Of a stretch of DNA of 64,000 nucleotides, positions 1 to 64,000 are shown one piece after another. Position 1 is the first letter of the stretch. The number at the start of each line of letters is the position of its first letter. The position numbers and the translations under genes were made by a program. Source of the DNA: an uncultured virus (IMG/VR IMGVR_UViG_3300046058_000006). Its lineage: Duplodnaviria; Heunggongvirae; Uroviricota; Caudoviricetes. The stretch lies in the IMG/VR virus record IMGVR_UViG_3300046058_000006, one strand, 5' to 3'. Below the pieces are notes generated by a model. That model saw only the letters and a list, made by a program, of their open reading frames with translations. It was not told the DNA's origin and made no database searches.

Positions 1-621
1 GCTTTGGACGTAAACGCGCGCCGCTTCAGCGCCCGCTGAAAGGTCGCCAGTGTCGCGGTCGTCGTTGAAGCTAACGTCGTCGTCGTCGCTGGCCAGCGTC
101 GAAAGGTCCTGTTTTTCGTCGTCCGACCCGGTTTCAATCGGGCGGTCGTCGTTCTGCTGGCCATTGTACTGTTCGCGTGCCTGCCGGAAGGCGTCAGCGT
201 GTTCGTAGCCGTCGTTATCCCACGTTTCTTCAGGCATTACACGCGATTCGAAGATGTACGCCGTCGAAGGTGCCCATTCGACTTCTTGGCTACCTTCACA
301 GCGGATAATCACGGCTTCGCCGACTTCAGCATGATTGACGTAGCCCAAGCCGCCGTGATCCGACATTTCCAAGGCGTCGCCGACTTCAAGATCGACAAAG
401 CCGGCGTTATCCGGTGCATCCGGGTCGTAGACCCTGATACCTTCGACGGGTTCGGCCAGCGCGATAATCGCGTGTGGCTGTTCGCTATCGTAAGGCGGGG
501 TCGTTCCCGCCATGACCACGCCCGAAACCGTCTGTGGTTCGTTCGGGTCGGGCTTCCAGTTCTTAGCGTATTCTACCTGTTCGCCTTTCGCGCCGCTTGC
601 CGCGTCGTCTATTCCGATCAT
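1..621 (-). CDS. Acidic hypothetical protein, 3'-truncated by window edge (possible ssDNA-binding/replication protein)
   Basis: Manually translated open frame from ATG at 621 (MIGIDDAASGAKGEQVEYAKNWKPD...) with no stop to position 1; D/E-rich like the genuine genes; TATA-like element upstream. Not in the ORF track. Confidence 0.75.
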   Translation of the reverse strand, partial: MIGIDDAASGAKGEQVEYAKNWKPDPNEPQTVSGVVMAGTTPPYDSEQPHAIIALAEPVEGIRVYDPDAPDNAGFVDLEVGDALEMSDHGGLGYVNHAEVGEAVIIRCEGSQEVEWAPSTAYIFESRVMPEETWDNDGYEHADAFRQAREQYNGQQNDDRPIETGSDDEKQDLSTLASDDDDVSFNDDRDTGDLSAGAEAARVYVQS

Positions 622-703
622 ATTTTGTACGCGGGTCCGGGGTTTCTTTTGCCCCGCTTTGACCCATTTAGACACATAGACGGCAGGCGTAAAAACCTGG
701 CGT

Positions 704-1561
704 TTAGTTGCTTTCAGTAGGGTTTTCGCCGATAATATCACACATTTCAGCCATGCGGTTTCGCACTGTCACCGTCGAAACGTCGCCGATTTCCCCCGCT
801 TCAGTTTGCGTTACAGGTTCGTCCGCGAACTGTGCGGCTAAATAAACAGCGCCGGCCGCAACGCCGCTTGGATTTTTGCCGTTGTCGTATTCAGACCCCC
901 GCCAAGCGTCGATTAGTTCCCGCGCGTGCGCGTCGTCTACACCCGCGCGCTGTGCATAGCGGCCTACGTATTCTTCCGGGTCCATAATCGGTGTTACCAA
1001 GTCATAGCGCCGCCGAAAGTTGCGGTACGCTACGTCCGCGTCCGCCTTGTCCGGCAGGTATTCTTCGATTTCATGCAGTGACCTGGTAGCCCCGTTCTGC
1101 CGGCAGATTATATAGAAGCACGCGCCGCATACGCCTTCAAGCGTCAGCGCTATCAGGCCGTCCGAATGAACCTGTTTGAACAGGTACGCGGCCTGTTCGA
1201 TATAGCTTTCAGGCAGGTCTAAGGCCGCGCCCAAACGGTTTATCTCCGATAAACCGGCTTCCCTTGTGTGGCTGTTTTCCGTCCGCGCGCGGTATTCTTG
1301 GTGCCGCATACGCGACCGTTTCAGCGGGTCGCTTGTGTCGTTCGTCGCGGTCATTCGCGTGCGCAAACCGTTATCCGGCAGGCGGTTCGTGCGTTGCGCG
1401 CCAGTGCGCCGGCGTTCTTCGATTTCTTCGCTGTTGAACGCGCGCCATTCAGCGCCCCGGTCTATCGGTTCGTCGTCGTAGACAAGCCCGCAGGATTCAC
1501 AAAACGTTTCCTTGTCGGTTGTAGAAACCCGTCCGTTACATTCTTCGCAGGCAAAAGCCAT
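704..1561 (-). CDS. tfb: Virus-encoded transcription initiation factor IIB (TFB)
   Basis: N-terminal Zn ribbon CEEC..CESCG, IDRGAEWRAF B-reader, two cyclin repeats, GKNPSGVAAGAVY, C-terminal HTH TQTEAGEIGDVSTVTVRNR. Confidence 0.95.
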   Translation of the reverse strand: MAFACEECNGRVSTTDKETFCESCGLVYDDEPIDRGAEWRAFNSEEIEERRRTGAQRTNRLPDNGLRTRMTATNDTSDPLKRSRMRHQEYRARTENSHTREAGLSEINRLGAALDLPESYIEQAAYLFKQVHSDGLIALTLEGVCGACFYIICRQNGATRSLHEIEEYLPDKADADVAYRNFRRRYDLVTPIMDPEEYVGRYAQRAGVDDAHARELIDAWRGSEYDNGKNPSGVAAGAVYLAAQFADEPVTQTEAGEIGDVSTVTVRNRMAEMCDIIGENPTESN

Positions 1562-1596
1562 TAATAAAAGTTATCCCGGCGCTACTAGTTAAACCG

Positions 1597-1719: not shown

Positions 1720-1744
1720 ACGGCCTGTAAAAGCGCGGCGGCTT

Positions 1745-2325: not shown

Positions 2326-2386
2326 ACGCCTACGAACGCCGCCAGGTACGAAAGGTTAACGGTCGCTTTCGCGCCGCTAAAATCGG

Positions 2387-28828: not shown

Positions 28829-28897
28829 TGATATGTTTGCTCCTTATCGAAGATAGATTAATCGCCGCGTTTAAACGCTGGCCTTCGTTCTAACCAG

Positions 28898-34195: not shown

Positions 34196-34311
34196 TACTA
34201 TCTCCTTACGGTTCCCGGTTATTCGGCTGTTTTAAAGCTTTCTTTAGCGGGCGCGCTTGCGCCGGCTGTTTGAAAGTAAATACTTATACGAACGCGCCAG
34301 GAAAACGCCGT

Positions 34312-43060: not shown

Positions 43061-43537
43061 CTACGAATACGTAGCGCCAGCGTCGCGGCGTTCAATCCCC
43101 GCGCGTTCTAAGGCGTTATAAACGGTCGAAGCCGCGACGCCTAACTGTCGCGCGATTTCTATGCCGGACTGCTGTGGTTCTTCGACGTATTGGGCGCGCA
43201 AGAAATCAGCGTCCGCCAGCTTTTCGCCGGCTTCAATCCCACAGACCCTATGGCCTTTGACGCCTATGCCGTGTTCATCCAGCTTCTTTTCGACAAGGGT
43301 ATGACTAACGTCTAACATTTCGCCGATTTCCCGGTTCGTGTACCGTTCTGCCTTTTCGCGTAGCCATTCAGGGTCGTTCAACGCTGTTTCTTCGGCGTGT
43401 TCCCTGGTAATGTGCCGGTTGATCCGGCTAACGTGCGCCGGGCCTTCGCCGCAGTGCGGACACACTTTCAGCGACGGCGGTAGGTCGTTGCTGTTGTAGC
43501 TGTCCCACGAATCCGGCACGTCGTTCGGGTCAATCAT
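43061..43537 (-). CDS. C2H2 zinc finger plus tandem HTH DNA-binding protein
   Basis: CPHCG..HITREH; two L.D..L..Y..EI...LGV..T....L...GI repeats. Confidence 0.8.
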   Translation of the reverse strand: MIDPNDVPDSWDSYNSNDLPPSLKVCPHCGEGPAHVSRINRHITREHAEETALNDPEWLREKAERYTNREIGEMLDVSHTLVEKKLDEHGIGVKGHRVCGIEAGEKLADADFLRAQYVEEPQQSGIEIARQLGVAASTVYNALERAGIERRDAGATYS

Positions 43538-43811
43538 GGCTGTAAACCAACAGCAGGTTATCATGGGCGTGCGCCTTCAGTCCGCCGCGCGCGGCTAAGA
43601 CGCCTTTGCGGAAGGTAACGCGCGCGACGCCGTTGATTTCTACGTGCTGGATACCGTTGAACGTCTTACTGAAACCCTTGTTTTCAGCGATAATCCGCGC
43701 GGTACTGCCTTGGTGCTTCAGCGCCGTAATAAAGTGGGTTTGGTCGCGGGTTTTTGCTTCCCACTGTGCTTCAGTTTCGACGCCTGCCGTTACTGCGGGC
43801 ATTTCCGACAT
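43530..43811 (-). CDS. Hypothetical protein
   Basis: Own promoter-like upstream; overlaps the next start. Confidence 0.55.
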   Translation of the reverse strand: MSEMPAVTAGVETEAQWEAKTRDQTHFITALKHQGSTARIIAENKGFSKTFNGIQHVEINGVARVTFRKGVLAARGGLKAHAHDNLLLVYSHD

Positions 43812-49464: not shown

Positions 49465-49640
49465 TTGCCCCGTAAGGGCAACGCGGCTGTCGGTGTCAGC
49501 CGGGCCTGGATCACCCGGCGCAAGCGGGACACGCTTGCAATCCGATCATATGCGACCGGCGAATCCGTGCGGCACGACGCACGTCCGCGCCTGTAGCGCG
49601 GAAGTTATATTCGGTTCGCCGGTTAACACCTCCTTACAAT
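49465..49640 (+). ncRNA. Candidate structured ncRNA 3
   Basis: TATA at 49436; at least six stems (TTGCCC/GGGCAA, GGCTG/CAGCC, CCGGG/CCCGG, GCAAGCG/CGCTTGC, ACCGGCGAA/TTCGCCGGT, TCCGCGC/GCGCGGA); no ATG after the promoter. Confidence 0.6.
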
Positions 49641-49642
49641 CG

Positions 49643-51310
49643 TTAAGCGTCAGCTTCAGCGCCGCCGCCGTTTTCACCTTCCCCGCCTTCACCGCCCGCT
49701 TGCGCGCCTGCGATTTCCGCCAAGGTTTCGCCGTCCGCCGCTTCGATTTCCTGAAGCGCGTTTTCAAGTTCGGCGTAGTCCATGTTCAAATCCTGTTCTA
49801 CGACCTGTTCAAGCGGTAGGTAAGCGTCTACACCGCTCTGGATATAGAGCTTCCAACCCTGCATATACTTATACCAGGCTTCAGCGTCAAAGTCTTCGTC
49901 CTTCAGCGGGCTTTTCGATTGATCGGATTCGATCGCAAATTCTACACTGTCTATAAGATCTTCGCGGTCGCTGTCCGCGACGCTAACAATCCCCCGATCG
50001 ATCAAGAAGCGCGCCTTCTTCCGAAAGATACCAGTGTAGCCGTCGGAAATCCGCCGGCGAATCCGGTTAACGTCCCGGTCGAACTGTTCTACACGCGGTT
50101 CCGTAACGTCGCGGTTGATACTGTCGCCAAAGCCGACATACGCCTTCGGAACGTTAAGCCCGCCATAGATCGTATCGATGCTCATACGGATCGACGGTTC
50201 TATGTCCGGCAGTTCCGGCGTGTGCCATTCGGTTTCGACGCCGGGCGGCACGCCGAAGATACCACCTGGCGAATTATGCGCGCCGCCGCCCGATCCATCC
50301 AGGTCCGAATAGTCGGTTTCGTCGCCGCTTCGCCGCCGGTTTTCCTTCCACCCGCGCGACCCTGAAGCGCCCGACCCGCGCCCGCGCAAAGCGTTAATGA
50401 ACTGTTGCATCTGTTGGGTCGTCCATTCGATTATATCCCCGGAAGGCAGTTCGACCTGGTTGAAGCTAACGTTCGCACGCGGATGGGCGATATTTTTCAG
50501 CGCCGCGTTGTAGTCGTCGCGCCTGTTCTGTACCGCTATCGCTTCTTCCGCAACGGGTTCAACGATCGACATACCGCGAACTTGGCCGGCCTTTCCTGTA
50601 CTGCCGGCGCTGTGGTTCGGCGTGTCCGGCATGGGGTTCCGAACGATCTTGGTAACGTCGCGCTGTGAAAGCGGCACTACGTCGGCTTCAGCCTTGGACG
50701 AAGCGCGCCCCATGTTCTGAATGTAACAAGCCCATTCGCCGCGCGCATTCTGCGGCGTGCCTTCAGGCACGTTCGCCGCGTCGTCGTCCGGTCGAATCAG
50801 CCGATCGCTTTCGGGATAACAAAGAATGTCAACAGATAACGGATCGATCGACTGAAAGCCGGAAAAGTGGCTTGGATCGGTCGGGTCGTCGTACATATGT
50901 TCAAGCAATACGGTTCCGTCCAAGTCATGCGCACGCGCGTCGTACCACAACTGCGGGCCTAACGGCTTGTCGTATTCGCCGCCGTAAATAACGCATTGAT
51001 CGGCCCACTTTCGTAGCAGGTCGGTTAGGTCGTCGTCATCCGACCGAACAGTAAAGCCAGGCCGGGCGACTTCCCCGCAACGCAAATCCAGGCCGGGGTT
51101 GATGTACGGGTTTTCCCGGTACAGCCGCCGGTATAGCTGTATCTGGTTACGATCGGGGGAACTGCGTTCGTAGCCGCCGGCGCTGAAGCCGCCGAACCCT
51201 GAAGTCGTAGTTTGTGGGTCGGGAATGTCGCCCAAGAAATCCGGGCGGTCGCCGTCGCTTAGTGCAAGCGCGGCTTTTGTAATGTCGCGCGCGTCGCTAT
51301 ATAAGCTCAT
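49643..51310 (-). CDS. Portal protein
   Basis: YRRLYRENPY, DGTVLLE, RGMSIVE, GLNVP..G; between TerL and gpF-like genes. Confidence 0.9.
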   Translation of the reverse strand: MSLYSDARDITKAALALSDGDRPDFLGDIPDPQTTTSGFGGFSAGGYERSSPDRNQIQLYRRLYRENPYINPGLDLRCGEVARPGFTVRSDDDDLTDLLRKWADQCVIYGGEYDKPLGPQLWYDARAHDLDGTVLLEHMYDDPTDPSHFSGFQSIDPLSVDILCYPESDRLIRPDDDAANVPEGTPQNARGEWACYIQNMGRASSKAEADVVPLSQRDVTKIVRNPMPDTPNHSAGSTGKAGQVRGMSIVEPVAEEAIAVQNRRDDYNAALKNIAHPRANVSFNQVELPSGDIIEWTTQQMQQFINALRGRGSGASGSRGWKENRRRSGDETDYSDLDGSGGGAHNSPGGIFGVPPGVETEWHTPELPDIEPSIRMSIDTIYGGLNVPKAYVGFGDSINRDVTEPRVEQFDRDVNRIRRRISDGYTGIFRKKARFLIDRGIVSVADSDREDLIDSVEFAIESDQSKSPLKDEDFDAEAWYKYMQGWKLYIQSGVDAYLPLEQVVEQDLNMDYAELENALQEIEAADGETLAEIAGAQAGGEGGEGENGGGAEADA

Positions 51311-52189: not shown

Positions 52190-52846
52190 ATGGGACAGCT
52201 AACTGATAGCGCCCCTGAAGAACAGGCAAAGGTGTTCCTGTCCGCATGGCTACAGCGCGAAGGCGCGGCTGTGTTTTGGGAAGAAAACACCGAATGGCCG
52301 TTCCCGACCTTCAGCGTGTCCGGTACAGGCGGACGAAAACCCGACTTGGTTGCTTCGACGCAGGCCGGAAAAACAATCGCGTTAGAAGTGAAAAGCGGCT
52401 ACAATACAAGCGGGCCGATTACCGGGTTGATCCAGGCGTTCGGCTACTGGCGCGACTATTCGACCCGGAAAGCGAACTACAACCTGCCGAACCGCATGGG
52501 CGATAATCACAAGATCGACGTGTTCGCGGTAGCGACGCAGTACGCGAAACAAGGCGCGGCCTTTTGCCCGGATGGGAACCGCGATTCTATCCGCGACGAT
52601 TATGCGTCAGACGAAAGAACTTGGCGAAACACGCCGGATCAAGAGCACAACTGTAGCCTTGTGCTTCGCATGACAGCCGCGCGGCTTATCCGCGACCTAT
52701 ACGGCTACGAAAACCTGCCGGACGGCGCGCCAGGCTTCGGCCTGTTGCTGTCTGACGCCTTGGACGACCGAAGCGGCGATACAGTGCGCCCATGGGTATG
52801 CTACTACGACGAAAGCTTTGACAATTGGGAACCTGTGGTAGAATGA
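52190..52846 (+). CDS. PD-(D/E)xK restriction-endonuclease-like nuclease
   Basis: E....KPDLV..IALEVK...QAFGY. Confidence 0.75.
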   Translation: MGQLTDSAPEEQAKVFLSAWLQREGAAVFWEENTEWPFPTFSVSGTGGRKPDLVASTQAGKTIALEVKSGYNTSGPITGLIQAFGYWRDYSTRKANYNLPNRMGDNHKIDVFAVATQYAKQGAAFCPDGNRDSIRDDYASDERTWRNTPDQEHNCSLVLRMTAARLIRDLYGYENLPDGAPGFGLLLSDALDDRSGDTVRPWVCYYDESFDNWEPVVE

Positions 52847-53100
52847 ACCGCAAGAAAGTGCCGGATCGCCTGGTAAGCGACGACTTCCGTTTTGACGGAC
52901 AAACAATCAGCGAAATGGGGTATAACATCTACCAGTTCGGCGATTATGTGCGAATCGTACCGAACGATTCAAACAGCAATTGGGACAGCCGAAACGAAAT
53001 GGGAACTGTGTGCCGGATCATGGCACAGTTTGACTATATAATGGTACACGCTAACAGCAATCGTATGGTCTTTTCGCCCGAAACTGTTGCGCTGTTCTAA
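52843..53100 (+). CDS. Hypothetical protein
   Basis: Overlap-coupled with the nuclease gene. Confidence 0.6.
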   Translation: MNRKKVPDRLVSDDFRFDGQTISEMGYNIYQFGDYVRIVPNDSNSNWDSRNEMGTVCRIMAQFDYIMVHANSNRMVFSPETVALF

Positions 53101-54584
53101 CCGACTACTGGCGCGACGCTATCCGGCCTGTGCGGCCGGGAAGTCGGCGCGTTGCCCCCGGCCGCATAGCACGCGATTGCAAGCGCGTCCGGTATATCGT
53201 CGCCGCGCTTTTCGTCCCTGTGGTCTACTTTGACGTAGCCGCTTGGCGTGTGACTAAATTCCAAGTCCGTTAGCTGTTCGATTAGCTTCGTGTGATCCGG
53301 TAGGGTTAGACTGCCTTCGTCAATCCGGCGCTTCAGCAGGTTGTAGTATTCGCTTTTCGTTTTCAGGGTTGACTTTATTTCGCCAATGTTTGTCACGCCA
53401 TAATCAGCGGCAAAGTCAACAGCGCCGCCGCCGATTACGTTGCTTTCGATATAGATTTCTTCGGGGCCAAAGTCGCGGTTCATAGCGTTCGCCATGCCGA
53501 CTATTTCTTTCGTATCGTTTTCAGGCATGACCTGGTAGACGTTTACCGTACCCTTTTCGTCTACAAGCACGCCTGCGGTTTCGTCTTTGCCGCCGCGTGC
53601 TGGATCAATGCCGCCGAAGCACGCTATGCCTTCGGGCGCGAACTGCGGTAGGTCGTCGCGGACACATTCTTTTGCGTCGCGGTGTTTAATGAATACGTCG
53701 CCTTCGTCCGTAAAGATCGCCAGGTATTCCTTTTCGAAGGAAAGCGTATCCAAGCTTTCGCGCTTGTCTTGGACGAACGAATCCGCGACCATAGGGTTGA
53801 TCGTAGTCGGCCAGTGAAACCGAAACCAGTCACTATCATCTTCGCGTGCGTCGTTACATTTCCTGTAGAAATAGCCGCTCTTACCGTTCGTAGTCGAATA
53901 CAAATAAAATTCAGTCGTGTCCGGCCTATCTTCAAAGCCGTCAATGTGGGAAACGTCGCCGGTAAATTCCCCAAACATCGGTTCTATGACTTCCGTAAGG
54001 ATGGATTCTTTTTTATTGAACGCGGCTTCGTCGAAAATTATGATTTGCGGCCCTAAGCCCCGTATCTGACTGCCGTCGTCGCCGGTCGTCTGACTGATAA
54101 TCCGCGCGCCGCTGTCAAATTCGTACATCGTTTTATTGTCCGTTTCGATGCCGAAAAATTCCTTTACGGACATACCGAACCGATCCGGCCAGGGGCTTTC
54201 GTAGTACCAGGCCGTCGCCGCTTGCATCATTTCGTCCGCCGTTGACTGATACGGCGCGGTGATCAACGTATCTTCGCCGTGTGCGGGCTTCAGCGGCGCG
54301 TCAGCCGCGATTAGCGACCCGCAAAACGTTTTACCGCCGCGCCTGCCGATCGGCGACGCGCTTTTCGTGTGTTTATTCCATGCGTTAACGTCTAACATTT
54401 TACGCTGGTAGTCGAACAGCGTCGGACCGAACAGCATTTCTACGCGCTTCGAACGCGGTAGTTTGCTAACGTTCTTCAGGAAATCAGCCGGCGACTGTTC
54501 TGCCGGTTCAAGCTGAATATCTTTAACTTTCGTTACGTAGTCTAACAGCTCATCCGAATCCGGCAGGTCGTCTTTAGTAGGCAT
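53097..54584 (-). CDS. terL: Terminase large subunit
   Basis: LFDYQ, GRRGGKT Walker A, IIFDEAA Walker B, STTNG, GIDPARGGKD RNase H-like nuclease, DDIPDALA. Confidence 0.97.
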   Translation of the reverse strand: MPTKDDLPDSDELLDYVTKVKDIQLEPAEQSPADFLKNVSKLPRSKRVEMLFGPTLFDYQRKMLDVNAWNKHTKSASPIGRRGGKTFCGSLIAADAPLKPAHGEDTLITAPYQSTADEMMQAATAWYYESPWPDRFGMSVKEFFGIETDNKTMYEFDSGARIISQTTGDDGSQIRGLGPQIIIFDEAAFNKKESILTEVIEPMFGEFTGDVSHIDGFEDRPDTTEFYLYSTTNGKSGYFYRKCNDAREDDSDWFRFHWPTTINPMVADSFVQDKRESLDTLSFEKEYLAIFTDEGDVFIKHRDAKECVRDDLPQFAPEGIACFGGIDPARGGKDETAGVLVDEKGTVNVYQVMPENDTKEIVGMANAMNRDFGPEEIYIESNVIGGGAVDFAADYGVTNIGEIKSTLKTKSEYYNLLKRRIDEGSLTLPDHTKLIEQLTDLEFSHTPSGYVKVDHRDEKRGDDIPDALAIACYAAGGNAPTSRPHRPDSVAPVVG

Positions 54585-54651: not shown

Positions 54652-55188
54652 CTACAGTTCCGAAAAGTCCGCGTCTATTACATCGTCGTCCGCGTCCCAA
54701 GTGTCGCTAACGCTTTGTCCCTGAAGCGCGTTCGCGGTCTTGGTTTGCGGGTCGTTCAACAGACCAAGCTTTTTCATGCGATTTATCACGCTTTCGTTTT
54801 GCGCGCGGACGGTTTCAAGAAGCACGTTCGGGATTTCTTCAATAAATAGTTCCCCTTCTTGTAGGTTTTCGCGTTCCTGCGTTATTCCTTCGCGCTTGAT
54901 GTACCGATAGGCGTTCGGGATTTGCTCTAAATCAATGGCGATAGCCCGCAAGACCTGTTTTGCGAACATATCCGGGTCGCGGCCATTGATCCGACGGTAG
55001 CGATCGGCCAGGTCCTTTTCCATCCGGTCGATAAAGTCCGTATCCGTCTTGGGAAAGTTGTGGTAGTAGTTTTCCCTGTCAGCGTATAGCCCGTGCTTGG
55101 TCGCGTTCTGGTTTCCGACCGGCGCGCCGCGTTTTTCGGCTTCAGCGCGGTCGCTGTTCGCTTCGTCTTTCGTTCGATCGTTTCCCAT
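54652..55188 (-). CDS. terS: Terminase small subunit
   Basis: GAPVGNQNATKHGLY motif; directly upstream of TerL. Confidence 0.85.
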   Translation of the reverse strand: MGNDRTKDEANSDRAEAEKRGAPVGNQNATKHGLYADRENYYHNFPKTDTDFIDRMEKDLADRYRRINGRDPDMFAKQVLRAIAIDLEQIPNAYRYIKREGITQERENLQEGELFIEEIPNVLLETVRAQNESVINRMKKLGLLNDPQTKTANALQGQSVSDTWDADDDVIDADFSEL

Positions 55189-55211: not shown

Positions 55212-56597
55212 CTAAAAGGCCGGGAAGTCACCGGGGAACGCGCGGAACGGAACCTGGCTTTGGGCGCGCAAGAATCCAAGTTCCGGCTGTGGTACATCCA
55301 GGCCTTCAGGGTAGACGACCATGCCGATAGCGTCTTGGGAATGACCCGCGTACAGCAGGGCTTGGCTAACGCTTTCGCGCAAGACGCTTTCGGCGTCGTC
55401 TTCAGCTTCGATCATTAACACGCCCAAGTTAGTGTCAACCACTACGTCCGGTTCGCGGCCGCTTTTCAACCGCGGTTCGATTAGCACCTTATCAGACCCG
55501 TACCGTTCTTCGAACGCGCGCGCGACCTGGTTAATCAGCGCGCGGTCGCTTGGCGGTCGCATATCGCCGGGGGCATCGTCGTCGCCTTCGCCGCCGTCGT
55601 CCGGTTCGTCGCCTTCAGGCGAATCGTCCGGCGATTCGCCAGGGTCGCCGGGTTCGTTTGGCATATCGCCGCGTTCGGGCGCGGCCAGCGCGGTCACACC
55701 TAACTGTTCTTCGATGTTTCCAAGCTTGTCAGCGATCGAAACGCGCTGTGAACCGCTGAAAACGTGTCCGATCAAACTTGGCCGGCCGCTGTCCGGGTTC
55801 GTAAGCAACGGCGCGCCACTATCGCCGCCTTTGCTTTGTGCGGTCGTTACAAGCACGTCACGGCGTCGGACGTTTTCGTGGGCGTCGCCATAGCTAACGT
55901 CAACAGTCGCGTTTGTCGCGGTCACACGCCCGTCTGTTAGGCCTGTAGTCCGTCCGGTCTTTTGCACGCTGTCGCCGCGCATGACCGACCCGCCAGCTTG
56001 CATCGGACCGACGCCGTGCGGCAGGTACGCCCTTTGGCTTCGGCGTTCGCTTTCGCTTACAGACCGTGCGGCCGCGTCAGCCGGCGATCCATCTTCCAAC
56101 AGCGAACCGCCCACGTATTCCCCCACAGTGCCGTCTGAATCACCGTCGATAGGCGACGGCTGTACGATCGGTTCGCCGACTTCAGCGTTTTCAGATCGCC
56201 CATAGACGTGCTGGTTAGACACACGTACCACCTGGCCGGCGTCAGCGTTCAAGCCGATTTCAGCGGCACTTGGGTCGGTTACACGCGCCATGAAGCCGGC
56301 AGTCGCCGCGCCGCCGCTGGCGTTCATTTCCGAAACGCCAGGTCGAACGGGCCGGTAGCGCCGTCGCGGGCTTTCAAGCCGGGCGCGCACGTCGTTGCCA
56401 AGCGCGCTAACGTCGTTGACTTCAACCACGTCGGTATCAGCGTCGATACGTTCGCGCGCCAGTTTGCCCGACTTGATTTCATCTTCAGGTAGCTTTTCTT
56501 CGACCAAGACCACTACCTGTTCATCTTCGGCGCTTACGCCGCGCACACCGTCGTCCGAAAGGATAAATTCGTAATTCCGCGTGCTTCCACAGGACAT
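55212..56597 (-). CDS. Nal1-like trypsin-fold serine protease fused to a restriction-endonuclease-like domain
   Basis: Triad SNQHV / ADAA / GGDSGA, KTGRTTGLT; Pro/Asp linker; C-terminal EP..SGREPDVV..IEAE..QALLY. Confidence 0.8.
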   Translation of the reverse strand: MSCGSTRNYEFILSDDGVRGVSAEDEQVVVLVEEKLPEDEIKSGKLARERIDADTDVVEVNDVSALGNDVRARLESPRRRYRPVRPGVSEMNASGGAATAGFMARVTDPSAAEIGLNADAGQVVRVSNQHVYGRSENAEVGEPIVQPSPIDGDSDGTVGEYVGGSLLEDGSPADAAARSVSESERRSQRAYLPHGVGPMQAGGSVMRGDSVQKTGRTTGLTDGRVTATNATVDVSYGDAHENVRRRDVLVTTAQSKGGDSGAPLLTNPDSGRPSLIGHVFSGSQRVSIADKLGNIEEQLGVTALAAPERGDMPNEPGDPGESPDDSPEGDEPDDGGEGDDDAPGDMRPPSDRALINQVARAFEERYGSDKVLIEPRLKSGREPDVVVDTNLGVLMIEAEDDAESVLRESVSQALLYAGHSQDAIGMVVYPEGLDVPQPELGFLRAQSQVPFRAFPGDFPAF

Positions 56598-58272: not shown

Positions 58273-58314
58273 ATTTACTATCTGCGTCGAACGGTAATAA
58301 CTGTTTTGTCTGTG

Positions 58315-60168
58315 CTATTCGCTATCCAGTTCGTCCGCCAGCAGGCCGGCCGCGTCGCGTTCGTCGTCCGCCAGCGGTTTGCCTTCGGCGGCTTTGCGTA
58401 GCAGGTTCGCCGCGAAGCCCTTTGCATCTTCGTCGCTAACGAAATGGTGTAGAGCTTTTTCAGCGCGTCCTTCGTCGCCGTCAGCCGATTCTTCGCCGCC
58501 GTCAGCGGCCAGGTTGTCTATTTCTGCGTCGCCGTCCGGCCCGAAGCCGCCGTAATAGTCGTTCATAACGGCGCGTCGTTCGGTGTAGGCGTCGCCAAAG
58601 GACATTCCTTCGTCGCGCACGTCAACGATTAGCGCGTCGTCGCCGTTCGTGGGACGAAGCGCACGCCCGATAGTCTGGATCACTTCAACCGCCGACTTTC
58701 CGCCGTGTGCCAGGATAATCGCGTTAACATCGGGAATGTCAACGCCTTCTTTCAGCAACGTGGAAACCACTACGTCGATTTCACCGTCAGCGAACGCGGC
58801 CAGCTTTTCGTCGCGGTCAACCGTATCGGACGTAACGACTTCAGCCGTAACGTCGCTGTCGCGCCCGGCGATCTTTTCAACTATGAAGTGTGCTTGATCG
58901 ATCCGGTTGACGTTAACGATCGTTCGGCGACCGACCTGGCTAAGACCGACTGCCTTTTTCGCTATAGCGTCGTTGCGCGCGTCGCTGTGTTCGATACACC
59001 GCTTGTAAGCGTCGTGATATTCTTCCGCGCGACCGTTGCGGGTCGGGCCGTCGTGTTCGATCGTTTCGAAGCGCGGACGGGCCAGGTAGCCCTGCCGGAT
59101 CATGTATTCCGCGCCACGCGAATAGATCACAGGGCCGATCGCCCCGTTGATCCAGATTTCTTCAGGTTCGTTGCGCCGCCAGGGGGTTGCTGAAAGACCC
59201 AAGCGGAACGCGGACGGGAACAGTTGACCGACGCGGTGCATCGTATCGGCGACTGAAGTGCGGTGTGCTTCGTCGTAGATCGCCATGCCGTATTCGGCAG
59301 GCGATAGCGGCGCGTCGCCGTCAGCGCCGGACGTGCCTTTGCTAACAAGCGACTGCATGATAGCGACCGTAACTTGGTCGCCTTCGCGCCATTCGCCGTC
59401 GCCGATAATGCCGGGTTCGACGCCTAACAGGTCGCGGATTTCATCGGCCCACTGGTACAAAAGTTCGCGCGTATGCACGAACACCATGGTCTTGCGCCCG
59501 ACCTGCCGAATCGCGTGTAGCGCCGTGACAGTTTTGCCCGTGCCGGTAGGCAGTTCGATCACACCCGTCTGTTCTTCGGCGATCTTGTGGGCGGCTTCGT
59601 TCTGGTAGTCACGTAGTTCTTCTTCAAAGTGCCAGGACACGTCTATCGCGTCGCCTTTAAGACCGGATTCGGGGCCGGCCAGCGTAACGTCGAAACCTTC
59701 CGCTTCAAGAATCGCGGCCGCGCGGTCAACCAGGCCAAGGGGCGCGGTTCCCTGCCGGCGGTCTACGACGTGTTCGACTTCAGGGATTGACGGGTCAAAT
59801 TCAGCGTCGGGGTTTTCATACGCAAAGAAGTTATCCAGCACACCGATCGCCCGACCGCCGTCAATGTGAAACACGTTTTCGGCAGGGTCGCGCCGAAGCG
59901 TGACTTCAGGGCCGCTATCGTCGCCGGCGTTGATATAAAATTCGTCCTGTTGACTGCCGGTAGCGCGCCGAACCTGTTTCAGCGATTCTTCGCTGATTTC
60001 AACGGCCCATGCGAATTGATCGTCGTCTAATTGATCGTATTCGCGGGGGTAGCAGGGTTCGTAATGAACGACGCCCCATTCGGTGCTTTTTATGTCGCCT
60101 TTGTCCGCGCCGATAATCGCCAGCTTTTCGCCGTATTCCGTGTCAACGGTCGTCGTTTCGTAGCTCAT
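58315..60168 (-). CDS. SF2 DEAH helicase (XPB/Rad25-like)
   Basis: LRDYQ, LPTGTGKT, DEAH, LSATP, EGVDIP, QTIGRALR; start set at ATG 60168 after class promoter and hairpin. Confidence 0.93.
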   Translation of the reverse strand: MSYETTTVDTEYGEKLAIIGADKGDIKSTEWGVVHYEPCYPREYDQLDDDQFAWAVEISEESLKQVRRATGSQQDEFYINAGDDSGPEVTLRRDPAENVFHIDGGRAIGVLDNFFAYENPDAEFDPSIPEVEHVVDRRQGTAPLGLVDRAAAILEAEGFDVTLAGPESGLKGDAIDVSWHFEEELRDYQNEAAHKIAEEQTGVIELPTGTGKTVTALHAIRQVGRKTMVFVHTRELLYQWADEIRDLLGVEPGIIGDGEWREGDQVTVAIMQSLVSKGTSGADGDAPLSPAEYGMAIYDEAHRTSVADTMHRVGQLFPSAFRLGLSATPWRRNEPEEIWINGAIGPVIYSRGAEYMIRQGYLARPRFETIEHDGPTRNGRAEEYHDAYKRCIEHSDARNDAIAKKAVGLSQVGRRTIVNVNRIDQAHFIVEKIAGRDSDVTAEVVTSDTVDRDEKLAAFADGEIDVVVSTLLKEGVDIPDVNAIILAHGGKSAVEVIQTIGRALRPTNGDDALIVDVRDEGMSFGDAYTERRAVMNDYYGGFGPDGDAEIDNLAADGGEESADGDEGRAEKALHHFVSDEDAKGFAANLLRKAAEGKPLADDERDAAGLLADELDSE

Positions 60169-60242
60169 GGTTTGTCCGGGGTTCGTCGCCCCGTGATTAA
60201 CACGAATACCCGGACACGTATAAACCCATCGTCTTAGGGTAG

Positions 60243-60485
60243 TCAACCCCAATTCGATTCATTCAGCAAAAACACGAAATAGAAGAACTTACCGACCACA
60301 TACGGCAGGACGGCTATAACGATGGTAAGCGCCGCGCCAGCATGAATCGATACGTGAAACACGTTAGAAATTACCATGGATACGATACCGAAACAGGCCA
60401 ACAGGATAGCGCCGATAAACCAGCACACTACGCCGTCAACCTGTACGCTGTCATCATTCCAAATAAATTCATCTTCTTCGGTCAT
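60243..60485 (-). CDS. Small membrane protein
   Basis: Two hydrophobic helices; ATGA overlap. Confidence 0.65.
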   Translation of the reverse strand: MTEEDEFIWNDDSVQVDGVVCWFIGAILLACFGIVSMVISNVFHVSIHAGAALTIVIAVLPYVVGKFFYFVFLLNESNWG

Positions 60486-61126
60486 GCTGTCACCGCGTCA
60501 GCGATCCGGCGCGCTTTCTTTTGACCTATGCCATTAACGTTCGTTAGCTTTTCCGGTTCGGCGTGTGCAACGCGGAACACGCCGCCGGCGCTAACGAAAT
60601 GATCCAGCAGGCGCGACGCCAGTTCCGGGCCGACTGCCGGCAGGCCTTCGACAAGGTAACGCGGGCGCTTTTCAGGCGGCACGTCCGGCGCGTCGCGGAT
60701 ACTGGCCGGCGAAGCTTTGTCGTTGCGAAATTCGTTCGCGCGCTTGTCAACGACGTAGGCGGTCATTTCCTTATCGAACGTCGGCAGGACTTCTATACCC
60801 ATGCGCGGGACGGCTTCAATCGCGCCGATCACCGCTTTGTCGCTTATGTTGCGCATTGCCATGGTTTCTTTCCACCCGCCTTCAAGAATCAGCACGGGCT
60901 TCAGGTCGTTTTCTTCGCACGCGCTATACAGCGCGCCAAGTTGTGACCATATGCTGTTTTCGTTCTGCGTCAGCCGATCCACAAAGTCCGGGTAGCGCTT
61001 CCGTTCTATCAGGTATTCGCCAGCCAGGAAATCACCCGCGCCAAGCTTGTCCTTTTCGTAGTCGTCGCCGCTTTCAGCGAACGCGGCCGCGTGCATTTCC
61101 GGCGGTTCGCGCGTATCAATGATCAT
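60482..61126 (-). CDS. ERCC4/XPF-family structure-specific nuclease with HhH
   Basis: IIDTRE, GDF..IERK..D, LILEG, GLPAVG and GIGQKKA HhH motifs. Confidence 0.93.
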   Translation of the reverse strand: MIIDTREPPEMHAAAFAESGDDYEKDKLGAGDFLAGEYLIERKRYPDFVDRLTQNENSIWSQLGALYSACEENDLKPVLILEGGWKETMAMRNISDKAVIGAIEAVPRMGIEVLPTFDKEMTAYVVDKRANEFRNDKASPASIRDAPDVPPEKRPRYLVEGLPAVGPELASRLLDHFVSAGGVFRVAHAEPEKLTNVNGIGQKKARRIADAVTA

Positions 61127-61249: not shown

Positions 61250-63892
61250 TTACGCGAACGCCAGCAGTTCGGCCTGATTCGTCGCGTTCGGATTTAGATT
61301 AACCTGTTCGATCGCCTTCGTAAAGTAGTTTTGCCATATGTATGACCGGCTTTCCGGGGTAAAAGAAAAGGTGTCAACGCCCGCGCCAGGCACTTCTTGC
61401 GCCGCGCCATAGTCGGTATCTATTTCACCGTCCTTGTAGGCGCGCCAGGGTAGGGGTTCGTCCCGGTAGACCGGATGGATCACGCTTTCGCGCCCTGTAT
61501 CGAACTTGATATAAGGCACTTTGTCACCGCGTCCAAGCTTCGCGCCGTCGATGTACCCGGCTTCGACCGCCGCGTTATACATCTTCGCGGCCCTGGCGTG
61601 CGCCGTATGGTTCGAATACGTATCACAGTTACATTCGTCGCGGTCACACACGCATGACAGCCGTTTTCGAAGCGACGCACGCTTTACCAGGTCGCCGTCG
61701 CGGTCGCCGTCTAACACGGCGTCGCGTTCGTCTAAGATAATCGGCGCGGTCGGTTCATCTTCTAACAGCGCTTCGACCAAGCGCGCTTGTAGGTTTGACG
61801 CGCCCTTCAGCGTGTCCGACTTTTTGCACTTCAAGCCTACGACCTTGTGTTCGTCCGTCGCCTTTCCATCTTCCCAAACTTTCTTTACTGCATACGACTT
61901 TTTCTTGTCGGTCTGAATGAACCGCGACGCGACATAATCCACGTCCAATTCTATGAACGATTCATCGCCGTTCATTTTAAACCCGACAAGGTGTTTGATG
62001 TGTCGATTCAGGCTGTCTACAACAGCTTCCGCCGCGTCAGCCGCAACCTTGGCGCTGTCGTAGTCGTCCTTCAGGCTGATAAAGACGCTATCAGTGTCGC
62101 CGCCGATCACTTGGTCTACAGCGTCTATTTCGTTTTCTACGAACCGCCGGCTTTCGCGGATTAGGTACTGGCCGGTTTCGGTAATGTGTTCGGACATACC
62201 AGGGACGTAATAGCGGTGCAATGGCGACGCGACCACGCCGAACGACGAATTATACAGGGACTTAATACCCATATACATAGCCGCCGCGACTTTCTTTTCA
62301 GGCGTGCCGTTTTCCGCCGCGTTCCGGCGATCTTTAAATTCTTGCGCCAAATCTTCCAAGTCCGACGTAGCATCGGCCAGGATGCCCCGCTCGTAATCTG
62401 GATGCAAGAATCCGCCGCGCGCGTCGCCGTCCTTTTCAGGGTCGAAGCGGCTGTTAACACCTTCGATAAACGGCTGTTCCGTGTTCGCCCAATAGTCGCC
62501 AGGTCCGTCAGCCGTCTTGTTAACGTCTAACAGCTTCGGTTTCGTTATGATTTCCCGGTCGTCCAAGTAGTCGCCGACTTCTTTTTTCAGACCTTCGTAG
62601 CCGTCCGTATCAACCCAAGTGTTTTCGCCCATGTTTAGCGCCTGAATGATGCTTGGATACATCGAACTGAAGTCAGCGACGAATACCCATTCGTGCGTTC
62701 CCGGCGTCGTTTCGAACACGTAGCCGCCCGGAAATTCGCCAGTGTCCCGGTAGCGCCCGCGATCGGGGAACACGTAGCCCTGTTCGTTCGCGCGCCGTAA
62801 GATCACACCGTCAACGGCCTTTCCGACCGCGACGCGCGGGTAGCCGTTGCTGTCGTAGGTGATCGTAGACATTCGCGTATGCCCCTGTTTGCACACACGC
62901 GCGGTCGTTTCGACAAGTAGGTACTGTTCCGAAATGCGGCGCGTTAAATCCGCGTCCTGTAGGTTGTAGGACTTCAGGCGTTCCGGGTCGTTATTCCACC
63001 ATTCGCGTAGTTGCTTGTACGATTCGCTTTCGTCCATATCCTTCGAATCGCCTAATTCGTGTTCGGCGACCGAATCCAGGCCATAGCTGTCTAATTGGTC
63101 GCGCTTGAACGACCGGAACAGGCCCATGGCGTCGAAATGGATCAAGCCAAATTCCGGCCAGGTAAAGCCCGAAACGCGGTCACTTTCTTCAAGCCGGTTT
63201 TTCAGGTACGGCAGATCGAACGATTCGCTATTCCACCCGACAAGCACAAAGTAGTTTTCCAACAGACCGCCGTCGGAACGATCGGCCGGGTTCCCTATCA
63301 GTTCGGTGTAGATTTCCTGTTCCGTGCCAGTGATGAAAAATTCGTTGCCTTCGCCGTCAACCGCCGCGAAGGAAAGGATTTGCGCGTCCGCGTCGTCCGG
63401 TTCGGGGAACCCATCGGCCGGGTCTACTTCTATGTCAAAGTATAGCACGTCGCCCGGATCGGGCGTATCCAGTTCAAGCAGGTCCGGGCGATCGATTAAG
63501 ACGCGCCTGGCATAAGGCACGTCAGCCTGGTAGGTTTCCGGCACTATGTCAGCGTCGCTTTGCGGCATATCGGCCAGGTCGTCCCGAAGGTCGTCCAATT
63601 CGTTGCGAAAGCTACCGATCGTTCCGGGCGCTTCGGCTTCTACTTTCACGAAACCGTCCGGCGCATTATCGTAGTCCGGGTTCGTCCAAGCTTCCCACAG
63701 TTCGGTCTTAGACGTATCCAGTTCGCCCCATGGAATGTTATCAAAGTCGCCGACTTCCATGTAGAAGTACGGGTTGAACGGGGCTTTGAACTGTTTTCGG
63801 ACTTTTTCGCCGTTTTCTTTCATTAACAGCTCAACGTACAACGGATCGTCCGTATTGTCGAACCCATATTGCAGGTCGTACACGCGGGACAT
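61250..63892 (-). CDS. polB: Family B DNA polymerase
   Basis: Exonuclease FDIE, WNSESFD, YNLQD; polymerase DFSSMYPS, KSLYNSSFG, GDTDS, KKSY; C-terminal PIP-like QAELLAF. Confidence 0.97.
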   Translation of the reverse strand: MSRVYDLQYGFDNTDDPLYVELLMKENGEKVRKQFKAPFNPYFYMEVGDFDNIPWGELDTSKTELWEAWTNPDYDNAPDGFVKVEAEAPGTIGSFRNELDDLRDDLADMPQSDADIVPETYQADVPYARRVLIDRPDLLELDTPDPGDVLYFDIEVDPADGFPEPDDADAQILSFAAVDGEGNEFFITGTEQEIYTELIGNPADRSDGGLLENYFVLVGWNSESFDLPYLKNRLEESDRVSGFTWPEFGLIHFDAMGLFRSFKRDQLDSYGLDSVAEHELGDSKDMDESESYKQLREWWNNDPERLKSYNLQDADLTRRISEQYLLVETTARVCKQGHTRMSTITYDSNGYPRVAVGKAVDGVILRRANEQGYVFPDRGRYRDTGEFPGGYVFETTPGTHEWVFVADFSSMYPSIIQALNMGENTWVDTDGYEGLKKEVGDYLDDREIITKPKLLDVNKTADGPGDYWANTEQPFIEGVNSRFDPEKDGDARGGFLHPDYERGILADATSDLEDLAQEFKDRRNAAENGTPEKKVAAAMYMGIKSLYNSSFGVVASPLHRYYVPGMSEHITETGQYLIRESRRFVENEIDAVDQVIGGDTDSVFISLKDDYDSAKVAADAAEAVVDSLNRHIKHLVGFKMNGDESFIELDVDYVASRFIQTDKKKSYAVKKVWEDGKATDEHKVVGLKCKKSDTLKGASNLQARLVEALLEDEPTAPIILDERDAVLDGDRDGDLVKRASLRKRLSCVCDRDECNCDTYSNHTAHARAAKMYNAAVEAGYIDGAKLGRGDKVPYIKFDTGRESVIHPVYRDEPLPWRAYKDGEIDTDYGAAQEVPGAGVDTFSFTPESRSYIWQNYFTKAIEQVNLNPNATNQAELLAFA

Positions 63893-63949
63893 TACAGCCC
63901 GGCGCTTTGCCCCCCAAAGACTAAAGCGTTGCGTACCGCATTAGTAGAC

Positions 63950-64000
63950 GTGACTAACGAAACAGCGATCTTGGACGAAGCAAAGCAAATCGTTAACGAA
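63950..64000 (+). CDS. 5' fragment of a divergent gene (ILDEAKQIVN start resembles DUF6378-type proteins)
   Basis: GTG start, 17 codons open to the window edge. Confidence 0.35.
   Translation, partial: MTNETAILDEAKQIVNE

What the first reader, a model, noticed from the sequence alone, without database searches (positions are those of the whole stretch)
1..64000. Trinucleotide GAG/CTC almost erased on both strands: possible self/non-self DNA discrimination system
Seen: reading bases 1-3000 by eye I found one CTC (~1244) and no GAG, where base composition predicts on the order of 100. The depletion holds across the window, in all frames and in intergenic DNA. Glu is written almost exclusively as GAA. 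Survivors include SD-type motifs (AAGGAG near 28842 and 34203; 49630) and cluster in the AT-richer adhesin cassette. Established: GAG (Glu) and CTC (Leu) are among the most used haloarchaeal codons, so this opposes host codon bias, and classical RM avoidance concerns 4-8-mers rather than a 3-mer. Inference: either a host defence reads a GAG/CTC core, or the virus encodes a GAG/CTC-specific nuclease/nickase that shreds the GAG-rich host genome while sparing its own unmodified DNA (chlorovirus short-site nickases are a precedent). Candidate enzymes are 52190-52846, 34312-34821 and the C-domain of 55212-56597.
Basis: partly seen in the sequence, partly recalled or inferred. Interest (0 to 1): 0.9.

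Follow-up and report, generated by a model that had tools for sequence, protein, structure and literature searches.

The report
Halovirus genome purged of GAG/CTC
A salt-rock archaeal virus has removed almost every copy of the three-letter DNA word GAG/CTC (and dozens of longer words) from its genome, which points to an undescribed nuclease system that reads a site only three bases long.

Summary
GAG+CTC occur 57 times in 64 kb against about 1500 expected (O/E 0.04). The loss is even along the window, on both strands, in all three frames and in intergenic DNA, and in all 16 NGAGN contexts. So it is a true 3-mer effect at DNA level.

The window is a near-complete genome of an uncultured haloarchaeal tailed virus with no recognisable methyltransferase.
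- 57 further words are also erased, including CTAG, GCWGC and 21 six-base palindromes.
- A strain about 90% identical keeps the purge. Its 639 substitutions made 1-2 new sites against 67 expected.
- Sister viruses erase other short words: CAG/CTG (0 in 9.4 kb) and GNGAG (1 against about 596).

Best reading (about 0.5): a methylase-free virus escapes sequence-reading host nucleases by word avoidance, and one reader recognises GAG.

Rival (about 0.2): a virus-encoded nuclease shreds GAG-rich host DNA. Candidate 52190-52846 has a PD-(D/E)XK nuclease fold but is missing from the purged sister strain. The C-domain of 55212-56597 also has a nuclease fold.

No prior report was found.

The parts
1..64000 (.). 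Genome-wide purge of GAG/CTC (57 copies, 0-3 per kb) in a near-complete haloarchaeal tailed-virus genome. A further 57 words are erased: CTAG, GCWGC, CCCAG, 21 six-base palindromes and many asymmetric 6-mers.
28840..28843 (-). Surviving GGAG, Shine-Dalgarno-like, 11 nt upstream of the start of ORF 27419-28828.
34202..34205 (-). Surviving GGAG, Shine-Dalgarno-like, 6 nt upstream of the start of ORF 33635-34195.
49630..49634 (-). Surviving GGAGG just after the portal gene's stop. It is conserved in L047. No ORF of 30 aa or more starts behind it.
52190..52846 (+). P0017, 218 aa: a PD-(D/E)XK nuclease (D52, E66, K68) of unknown specificity. It is a strain-variable insert between the terminase and portal genes, and is itself purged (1 GAG).
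55212..56597 (-). 461-aa fusion protein. The N-terminal part is a serine-protease-like domain (PHROG 20754 'protease', GDSG motif). It is followed by an acidic linker and a C-terminal nuclease-fold domain.
55215..55565 (-). C-terminal 117-aa PD-(D/E)XK-fold domain of the fusion. Its invariant motif is D384...E397-x-E399, with Glu in place of the usual Lys.
60482..61126 (-). Hef/XPF-type ERCC4 nuclease with an HhH2 domain. It is structure-specific and conserved in G001 and G002.
43061..43564 (-). 167-aa protein matching PHROG 'HNH endonuclease' families and HTH families. It has no homologue in G001 or G002.
53097..54584 (-). Terminase large subunit, used to find the relatives.
54652..55188 (-). 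Terminase small subunit.
49643..51310 (-). Portal protein.
32307..33170 (-). Major capsid protein (HK97-type).
19555..24618 (-). Tail tape-measure protein.
61250..63892 (-). Family B DNA polymerase, about 25% identical to those of cultured Halorubrum and Haloarcula tailed viruses.
58315..60252 (-). SF2 (ResIII/DEAD) helicase.
704..1561 (-). Virus-encoded TFIIB/TFB transcription factor, an archaeal hallmark.
29378..29477 (.). Run of 100 N (scaffold gap).

Best explanation
The window is a near-complete genome of about 64-67 kb. It belongs to an uncultured haloarchaeal tailed virus whose DNA turns up in halite and rock metagenomes. The virus has no recognisable DNA methyltransferase. It protects its DNA from sequence-reading nucleases by not containing their words. 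GAG/CTC is the shortest of at least 58 erased words.

Shown:
- The constraint acts on the DNA word itself, on both strands and in all frames.
- It is currently maintained by purifying selection.

Inferred:
- It works best on GAGK and CGAG, and worst on GAGC and GAGA.
- It probably tolerates sparse isolated sites, like a nickase or a density-dependent cutter, because 57 conserved sites persist.
- Each site lost multiplies the chance that the incoming genome survives, so even about 1500-2100 sites can be purged through synonymous changes.
- Sister viruses face related short-site readers (GNGAG, CWG) in other host lineages.
For: DNA-level constraint on the 3-mer:
- It is equal in all frames, both strands and intergenic DNA.
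- It holds in all 16 NGAGN contexts.

Ongoing selection:
- The window and L047 differ by 639 substitutions in 6630 aligned columns.
- These created 1-2 new GAG/CTC. Simulation gives 66.8 +/- 7.8, with a minimum of 45 in 2000 runs.
- Control trinucleotides gained 48-58 and lost 44-58 sites.
- 0 of the 40 population variants listed by the tool create a site; 2264 more were not shown.

The same genome uses avoidance wholesale:
- 58 erased words, against 1 in each of three Markov-2 simulations.
- 28 of 64 six-base palindromes are absent, 18 of them with a single-strand expectation of 8.6 or more. Others are at expectation: GCGCGC 130/130, GCCGGC 100/98.
- CTAG is at 1 against 142. CTAG is under-represented in all haloarchaeal genomes (PMC6471742, abstract and passages).

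No methyltransferase:
- None in the 84 window ORFs scanned of the 91 called, by Pfam or PHROGs.
- None in 64 of the 125 ORFs of G001 and G002.

Relatives differ in the erased word, as host-specific pressures would predict:
- L015: CAG/CTG 0 against 158.
- G001: GNGAG 1 against about 596.
- G002: GATC 2 against 231.

Accessory DNA:
- All strain-variable cassettes are purged too, 0-5 sites each.

Evolutionary route (inference):
- A host specificity change lets the virus adapt site by site.
- A change in a viral self-cutter would be suicidal.
Against: - No prokaryotic restriction-modification system with a 3-bp site is known to me (recalled), and the literature searches found none.
- A host would have to protect 44-57 GAG/CTC sites per kb of its own DNA, the density measured in three haloarchaeal chromosomal loci. 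That is costly and carries a risk of self-damage.
- GAG/CTC and CAG/CTG are very common words in haloarchaeal DNA. That suits a host-shredding viral enzyme better than a host enzyme.
- 57 sites survive. An orthodox double-strand cutter would not tolerate them, so an extra assumption is needed (nicking, or dependence on context).
- No host was identified. In 401 sampled Halobacteria genomes, 20 kb of the window gave no spacer-like match.
- About 2.9 kb of the source contig lies outside the window and was not seen. This rests on a protein identical to ORF 55212-56597 sitting on a 66,920-bp contig.
Confidence: 0.5

Rival explanations
1. A virus-encoded frequent-cutting nuclease or nickase reads GAG. 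Candidates are the protease-nuclease fusion 55212-56597 and P0017. It shreds the GAG-rich host chromosome, or co-infecting relatives. The virus is immune because it lacks the word, not because it is modified.
For: - The window encodes two PD-(D/E)XK-fold proteins of unknown specificity.
- The nuclease C-domain of the fusion is present in the three viruses with short GAG- or CAG-centred purges: the window, G001 and L015. G002's homologue lacks it: 379-aa ORF, 69% coverage.
- Haloarchaeal chromosomal loci carry 44-57 GAG/CTC per kb against 0.9 in the virus, a 50- to 64-fold difference.
- The purge is strict and constant, as expected if every infection exposes the genome.
- There is no viral methyltransferase, so absence would be the only self-protection.
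- Chloroviruses encode frequent nickases of 2-3 bp: Nt.CviPII at ^CCD and Nt.CviQII at R^AG (PMC3017599, passages).
Against: - P0017 is missing from L047, which keeps the purge, and from one X3 contig. It has no homologue in G001, G002 or L015.
- The fusion's nuclease domain is only about 117 aa, with no evident DNA-recognition module. It sits next to the terminase genes, where packaging helpers often lie.
- The co-occurrence rests on 4 genomes.
- This model does not explain the other 57 erased words, so host readers are needed anyway.
- Switching a self-cutter's specificity (GAG, GNGAG, CWG) would kill the virus unless its genome were purged first.
Confidence: 0.2
2. GAG is the shared 3-bp half-site of many diversified bipartite (Type I-like) restriction systems in the host population. 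Erasing the common half-site defeats them all.
For: - Type I half-sites are 3-4 bp.
- Specificities predicted by homology for Halobacteria Type I genes include GAGNNNNNNVTGAC, GAGNNNNRTAA and GAGNNNNNTAC (PMC6471742, table text).
- RM genes are patchy and often transferred in Halobacteria (same paper, abstract).
Against: - A given GAG matters only with a matching second half-site. Selection per site would be weak. It is unlikely to give 97% erasure and 1-2 new sites against 67 expected.
- The strong bias on the base just 3' of GAG (GAGK nearly zero) and G001's GNGAG do not look like Type I half-sites.
- Type I sites are not commonly avoided by viruses (PMC6286503, passage).
Confidence: 0.07
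3. GAG/CTC is the 3-nt PAM of the host's type I CRISPR-Cas system. The virus has removed PAMs to prevent spacer uptake and interference.
For: - Type I PAMs are 2-3 nt, act on double-stranded DNA in either orientation, and differ between hosts (recalled).
- The depletion is strand-symmetric.
Against: - Removing one PAM of about 2000 gives almost no benefit. Complete erasure, and the strong selection against single new sites, are therefore hard to obtain.
- G001's GNGAG is not a type I PAM shape.
- No spacer-like match was found in 401 sampled Halobacteria genomes for 20 kb of the window. Only a third of the window and a sample of genomes were searched.
Confidence: 0.05
4. The loss comes from a context-specific mutational or editing process (a deaminase, or biased repair), or from a sequencing artefact, rather than from selection.
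For: The neighbouring words GAA/TTC, AAG/CTT and CAG/CTG are enriched.
Against: - The depletion is equally deep in all three frames. Each frame needs a different base change to stay synonymous. One mutational channel would alter proteins in two frames.
- Protein sequences remain 55-97% identical to those of relatives that use GAG freely.
- Independent assemblies and four runs from three studies give the same DNA.
Confidence: 0.03

Closest known systems
Restriction-site avoidance in phage and archaeal-virus genomes (Rusinov et al. 2018, PMC6286503; abstract and passages read)
   Same: - Recognition words are eliminated from the viral genome as an anti-restriction strategy.
- Here this is plainly at work for CTAG, GCWGC and 21 six-base palindromes.
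   Different: - Documented avoidance concerns sites of 4-8 bp. Here the word has 3 bp, which means about 1500-2100 sites removed.
- Sister viruses erase other 3- and 4-specified-base words.
- No cognate system is known.
Chlorovirus frequent nicking endonucleases with cognate methyltransferases: Nt.CviPII (^CCD) and Nt.CviQII (R^AG) (PMC3017599, passages read)
   Same: - Natural enzymes that read only 2-3 bases.
- R^AG even includes GAG.
- They are encoded by a virus.
   Different: - Those enzymes come with cognate methyltransferases (M.CviQII is named in the reference list of PMC3017599). That chloroviruses protect their own DNA by methylation is recalled.
- This virus has no methyltransferase and lacks the word instead.
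- No sequence similarity to those enzymes was sought or seen.
- The host is an archaeon.
CTAG and GATC under-representation in Halobacteria and their viruses (Fullmer et al. 2019, PMC6471742; abstract and passages read)
   Same: - CTAG is erased in the window (1 against 142) and in nearly all relatives.
- GATC is erased in G002.
   Different: These are 4-bp palindromes linked to conserved orphan methylases. They do not explain the 3-mer purge.
SspABCD-SspE phosphorothioate defence keyed to the 3-nt motif CCA (PMC9646914, abstract in a search listing only), and the haloarchaeal DndCDEA-PbeABCD system at GATC (PMC6459918, passages read)
   Same: - Host defences that mark self DNA at very short motifs.
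- They occur in haloarchaea.
   Different: - Only about 1.4-2.6% of GATC sites are modified in the haloarchaeal system.
- No case of a virus escaping by motif erasure is described there.
- The motifs differ from GAG, GNGAG and CWG.

Membership tests
Restriction-site avoidance (anti-restriction by loss of recognition words) | The word is far rarer than composition or Markov models predict. | tested here: met
   57 against 1506 (O/E 0.038). Markov-2 simulations reproduce no other erased word.
Restriction-site avoidance (anti-restriction by loss of recognition words) | The effect lies in the DNA: both strands, independent of reading frame, and also in non-coding DNA. | tested here: met
Restriction-site avoidance (anti-restriction by loss of recognition words) | A cognate host system with that specificity exists. 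| not testable with these tools
   The host is unknown. No whole genome is held. There was no spacer-like match in 401 sampled genomes.
Restriction-site avoidance (anti-restriction by loss of recognition words) | The site length is that of known RM systems (4-8 bp). | tested here: not met
   All 16 NGAGN contexts are at or below 0.10, so the word is 3 bp.
Virus-encoded frequent nickase plus methyltransferase (chlorovirus CviPII/CviQII type) | A virus-encoded site-specific nuclease that reads 2-3 bp. | tested here: inconclusive
   Two PD-(D/E)XK-fold proteins are present. Their specificity is untested.
Virus-encoded frequent nickase plus methyltransferase (chlorovirus CviPII/CviQII type) | A cognate viral methyltransferase protects the viral DNA. 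| tested here: not met
   No methyltransferase family in the 84 ORFs scanned of the 91 called, by Pfam or PHROGs. About 2.9 kb of the source contig was not seen.
PD-(D/E)XK nuclease superfamily (P0017, 52190-52846) | Catalytic motif: PD ... (D/E)xK. | tested here: met
   D52 is invariant. P51, E66 and K68 are conserved in at least 90% of the 48 family members.
PD-(D/E)XK nuclease superfamily (P0017, 52190-52846) | The alpha-beta-beta-beta-alpha-beta core fold. | tested here: met
   - Model pLDDT is 90.6.
- The top VIA matches are nucleases of this fold: XisH Z 7.8, AF1548 7.6, VRR_NUC 7.5, PaqCI 7.2, N.BspD6I 6.5.
- All are under Z 8, the range the tool warns may reflect only a common arrangement.
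- Foldseek's best match has E 0.017.
PD-(D/E)XK nuclease superfamily (C-domain of 55212-56597) | Fold and acidic catalytic residues. | tested here: met
   - pLDDT is 89.0 in two of the five models and 56-70 in the other three, from 9 sequences.
- Foldseek matches: NucS 3.8e-4, Can2 4.3e-4, R2 endonuclease domain 6.4e-4.
- D...ExE is invariant.
- The usual Lys is replaced by Glu, as in BamHI (recalled), so activity is uncertain.
CRISPR PAM avoidance | Spacers against the virus exist whose protospacers are flanked by the depleted word. | tested here: inconclusive
   Only window 40001-60000 was searched, against 401 sampled Halobacteria genomes. The only hits were weak gene-level similarities.
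Haloarchaeal tailed virus (Caudoviricetes) | HK97-type capsid, portal, terminase and tape measure, plus archaeal hallmarks. | tested here: met
   - Structural and replication families.
- TFIIB and Hef.
- PolB is closest to Halorubrum and Haloarcula viruses at about 25% identity.
- The genome is collinear with G001, a complete 63.9-kb genome with direct terminal repeats.

The most novel reading that the evidence does not exclude
A family of very-short-site DNA nucleases operates in halite haloarchaeal virus-host conflicts. Its specificities are GAG, GNGAG and CWG, and they shift between lineages. In the boldest version the virus itself carries the enzyme. The conserved protease-nuclease fusion beside the terminase genes is the best candidate. 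The virus would use it to shred host DNA, which carries the word every ~20 bp, or the DNA of rival viruses. It would protect itself only by having erased that word from its own genome: self/non-self discrimination by absence of a word, not by modification.
Probability: 0.2. Interest if true: 0.92.

Novelty: new variant of a known kind. Interest (0 to 1): 0.8.

Why it matters
Word avoidance is a known anti-restriction strategy, but near-total erasure of a trinucleotide has not been described as far as my searches reach. About 1500-2100 sites were removed with no change to the proteins. Sister viruses erase CWG and GNGAG instead.

It implies that something in hypersaline archaea, or in their viruses, reads DNA words of only three bases and does so with lethal effect. 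That would be a new class of frequent-cutting immunity or counter-immunity, and a source of very-short-site nucleases or nickases.

It also gives directly testable predictions:
- methylation or nicking at GAG/CTC, GNGAG and CWG in halite haloarchaea;
- restriction of GAG-bearing DNA in the host.

The genome is also a natural example of how far a 64-kb genome can be recoded under dozens of simultaneous word bans.

Tried and rejected
- Longer sites as the cause: rejected. All NGAG/GAGN and all 16 NGAGN contexts are depleted.
- Codon bias or tRNA avoidance: rejected. The depletion is equal out of frame, on the antisense strand and between genes.
- An RNA-level reader such as a MazF-type RNase: rejected. 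Nearly all genes lie on one strand, yet both GAG and CTC are lost on that strand.
- Mosaic origin or recent import: rejected. Density is 0-3 per kb everywhere, and the accessory cassettes are purged too.
- Type III-like orientation bias: rejected. Both orientations survive (18 and 39).
- Spacing of survivors on opposite strands: uninformative. The nearest pairs are 11, 44 and 46 bp apart, close to chance.
- One common context ranking of GAG sites across the window, G001 and G002: none. Spearman 0.06 and -0.38.
- Terminase peptide scan of viral contigs with the single protein: nothing found. The alignment worked.
- blastn of 8 kb against the phage collection: no match.
- Scan of genome contigs with the terminase alignment: one distant provirus in a Halostagnicola contig, not informative on the host.
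- Search of 401 sampled Halobacteria genomes with window 40001-60000: no spacer-like hit. The other 44 kb were not searched.
- P0017 in IMG/VR: no close relative. Alignment-based scans were impossible because no conserved stretch exists.
- Names of P0017's homologues could not be looked up because the database is switched off.
- No RNA holder was listed among the sequencing runs.
- Notes from earlier stages of this scan: nothing on this genome or phenomenon.
- The full contigs of the 89%, 78% and 68% relatives (64,987, 65,434 and 69,206 bp) could not be fetched.

Full report
WHAT THE WINDOW IS

The 64,000 bases have 55% G+C and one run of 100 N at 29378-29477. They encode an HK97-type capsid protein, portal, large and small terminase subunits, a Mu-F-like head protein and a 1687-aa tape measure. 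They also encode a family B DNA polymerase, an SF2 helicase, a Hef/XPF nuclease and a TFIIB homologue. Nearly all genes lie on the minus strand.

The polymerase is only about 25% identical to those of cultured Halorubrum and Haloarcula tailed viruses. An 8-kb blastn against 50,697 phage records found nothing.

The gene order is collinear with G001. G001 is a 63,920-bp IMG/VR genome with direct terminal repeats, rated 100% complete. So the window is close to a whole viral genome. A protein identical to ORF 55212-56597 sits on a 66,920-bp contig. About 2.9 kb may therefore lie outside the window.

Near-identical DNA occurs in runs labelled halite or rock metagenome, from several studies.

- GAG occurs 18 times and CTC 39 times on the + strand. 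Composition predicts 912 and 1278.
- Pooled over both strands this is 57 against 1506 by a first-order Markov model: O/E 0.038, z -37. The next lowest trinucleotide is at 0.72.
- Density is 0-3 per kb in every kilobase.
- On the coding strand of ORFs of at least 100 aa, GAG is 21/7/7 in frames 1/2/3 against 638/273/223 expected. CTC is 7/2/2 against 309/156/226. Intergenic DNA has 8 against 134. Glu is GAA 1274 to GAG 21.
- All eight flanked 4-mers and all 16 NGAGN 5-mers are depleted at least ten-fold. No handful of longer sites explains it.
- Survivors are biased: GAGC 38, GAGA 16, GAGT 2, GAGG 1, and only 5 follow a C.
- Two of the three AAGGAG survivors sit 6 and 11 nt before start codons.

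IT IS NOT AN ARTEFACT, AND IT IS MAINTAINED NOW

L047 is an independently assembled 7-kb IMG/VR contig, about 90% identical to window 45835-53158. It has 8 GAG/CTC against 161 expected.

The two sequences differ at 639 of 6630 aligned columns. Re-placing those substitutions at random creates 66.8 +/- 7.8 new GAG/CTC, with a minimum of 45 in 2000 trials. The real ones created 1-2. All 7 window survivors in that stretch are conserved. Control trinucleotides gained 48-58 and lost 44-58 sites.

Logan contigs from four runs of three studies cover window 40001-60000 at 85-99% identity. None of the 40 variants listed creates a site; 2264 more were not shown.

1. The genome bans many other words.
   - The screen kept words with a maximal-order Markov expectation of at least 12 and an observed count of at most 12% of it. 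Words containing an already flagged word were excluded.
   - The window has 58 erased words. Each of three Markov-2 simulations gives 1.
   - Among them are CTAG (2/285), GCWGC (0/90), CCCAG (4/96) and 21 six-base palindromes. Examples are GGCGCC 0/103, TCGCGA 0/76, ACGCGT 0/70 and GACGTC 0/60.
   - There are also many asymmetric 6-mers.
   - Other palindromes sit at expectation: GCGCGC 130/130, GCCGGC 100/98.

2. No DNA methyltransferase family appears.
   - None in the 84 window ORFs scanned of the 91 called.
   - None in 64 of the 125 ORFs of G001 and G002.

3. The relatives erase different short words.
   - L015 has a terminase 68% identical. It has no CAG or CTG at all in 9.4 kb (158 expected), and GAG is enriched at 464/293.
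   - In three orthologous genes, Glu is GAA 97/GAG 2 in the window and 26/93 in L015. Gln CAG is 37 against 0. Leu CTC is 1 against 48, and CTG 25 against 0.
   - G001 has a terminase 55% identical. Its GAG is at O/E 0.5 because GNGAG is erased: 1 against about 596. Only 1 of 890 GAG sites has G at position -2.
   - G002 erases GATC (2/231) and has GAG at about 0.7.
Some of those loci overlap one another.

MECHANISM

A mutational or editing bias is unlikely. Removing GAG synonymously needs a different base change in each frame, yet all frames are equally purged. An RNA-level reader is excluded by the strand symmetry. What remains is selection against the double-stranded DNA word.

Each site removed from a genome exposed to a site-reading nuclease multiplies its survival. 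That can drive complete erasure even of a very frequent word. Removing one PAM out of thousands gives almost nothing, so CRISPR PAM avoidance is a poor fit.

The genome visibly relies on word avoidance for dozens of ordinary restriction-type sites and has no methylase. The most economical reading is therefore that GAG is one more host specificity, only much shorter, and that sister viruses face GNGAG and CWG readers in other hosts.

The 57 conserved survivors imply one of two things.

The weaknesses of this reading:
- No such 3-bp prokaryotic system is known to me or was found in print.
- A host would have to protect 44-57 sites per kb of its own DNA.
- No host was identified.

THE VIRAL-NUCLEASE ALTERNATIVE

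ORF 52190-52846 (P0017):
- It belongs to a family of 91 representatives with conserved D52, E66 and K68.
- Its model is confident, at pLDDT 90.6.
- The nearest solved folds are PD-(D/E)XK nucleases: XisH, AF1548, VRR_NUC, PaqCI and N.BspD6I. All are below Z 8.
- But it is a strain-variable insert. It is absent from purged L047 and from one X3 contig. It has no homologue in G001, G002 or L015. It is therefore not required for the purge.

ORF 55212-56597:
- It is a serine-protease-like protein (PHROG 20754, GDSG motif).
- It is fused through an acidic linker to a 117-aa domain. The model (pLDDT 89 in two of five models, 9 sequences) matches NucS, Can2 and the R2 endonuclease domain at Foldseek E of 4e-4 to 8e-4.
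- The domain's invariant motif is D...ExE.
- The domain is present in the window, G001 and L015, and is missing from G002's homologue. The pattern is suggestive, but it rests on four genomes.
- The domain is small and lies beside the terminase genes.

A virus-encoded GAG cutter would see a 50- to 64-fold difference in site density between host and virus. Chlorovirus nickases of 2-3 bp are a precedent (PMC3017599). But this model still needs host readers for the other 57 words. A change of specificity would also be suicidal for the virus.

COMPARISON WITH THE LITERATURE

- Site avoidance is widespread in prokaryotic viruses, mainly for orthodox Type II sites (PMC6286503, abstract and passages).
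- CTAG is under-represented in all Halobacteria, and RM genes there are patchy and mobile (PMC6471742, abstract and passages).
- Haloarchaeal phosphorothioation marks GATC at about 1.4-2.6% of sites (PMC6459918, passages).
- I found no report of trinucleotide erasure in haloviruses. A halite-community preprint does not mention restriction at all (term counts and passages).
- Supplementary files were not consulted.

VERDICT

Its extension to sister lineages with other short words is new.

Noticed in passing
window 1-64000: Besides GAG/CTC, 57 words of 4-6 bases are erased. They include 21 six-base palindromes, CTAG, GCWGC and CCCAG. Several asymmetric words equal known Type IIS sites by recall: GAATGC, GCGATG, CAACAC. 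28 of 64 hexamer palindromes have zero copies, while others are at expectation.
   Followed up: partly
window, all CTG/CAG sites: CAG/CTG is the most enriched trinucleotide (O/E 1.6). Yet 24 of the 64 CTGNNN hexamers are at or below 0.09 of expectation, for example CTGAAC, CTGCGC, CTGGGN, CTGACC and CTGGTC. Many of the banned longer words therefore share a CTG core.
   Followed up: partly
L015:1-9397: This relative (terminase 68% identical) has no CAG or CTG in 9.4 kb and uses GAG and CTC heavily. It is the mirror image of the window.
   Followed up: partly
G001 (L054-L057), whole 63,920 bp: This complete relative has erased GNGAG/CTCNC (1 against about 596) and depleted TNGAG (57 against about 490). 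A further 42 words are erased.
   Followed up: partly
window 55212-56597: An unusual fusion of a trypsin-like serine protease (GDSG motif) with a small PD-(D/E)XK-fold domain carrying D...ExE. It lies directly upstream of the terminase small subunit. G002's homologue lacks the nuclease domain and sits elsewhere in its genome.
   Followed up: partly
window 52126-52848: Presence/absence polymorphism of the P0017 nuclease gene in the natural population. It is absent in L047 and in one contig of run X3, and present in contigs of X2, X3 and X4.
   Followed up: yes
window 46958-46965: Contigs of runs X4 and X5 carry 555 extra letters here, at the start of the Mu-F-like head gene. The content was not seen.
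   Followed up: no
L054:7810-8301, L055:10247-10942, L055:17823-18566, L060:1385-1927, L060:4308-5219: The relatives G001 and G002 carry HNH endonucleases next to the small terminase subunit, plus HNH_3 and LAGLIDADG homing-type endonucleases. The window has none of these at the same places.
   Followed up: no
window 704-1561: A virus-encoded TFIIB/TFB homologue. In G001 and G002 the homologue sits at a different position relative to the polymerase gene.
   Followed up: no
window 29378-29477: A 100-N scaffold gap inside the tail/neck gene block. It truncates ORF 28898-29512.
   Followed up: no
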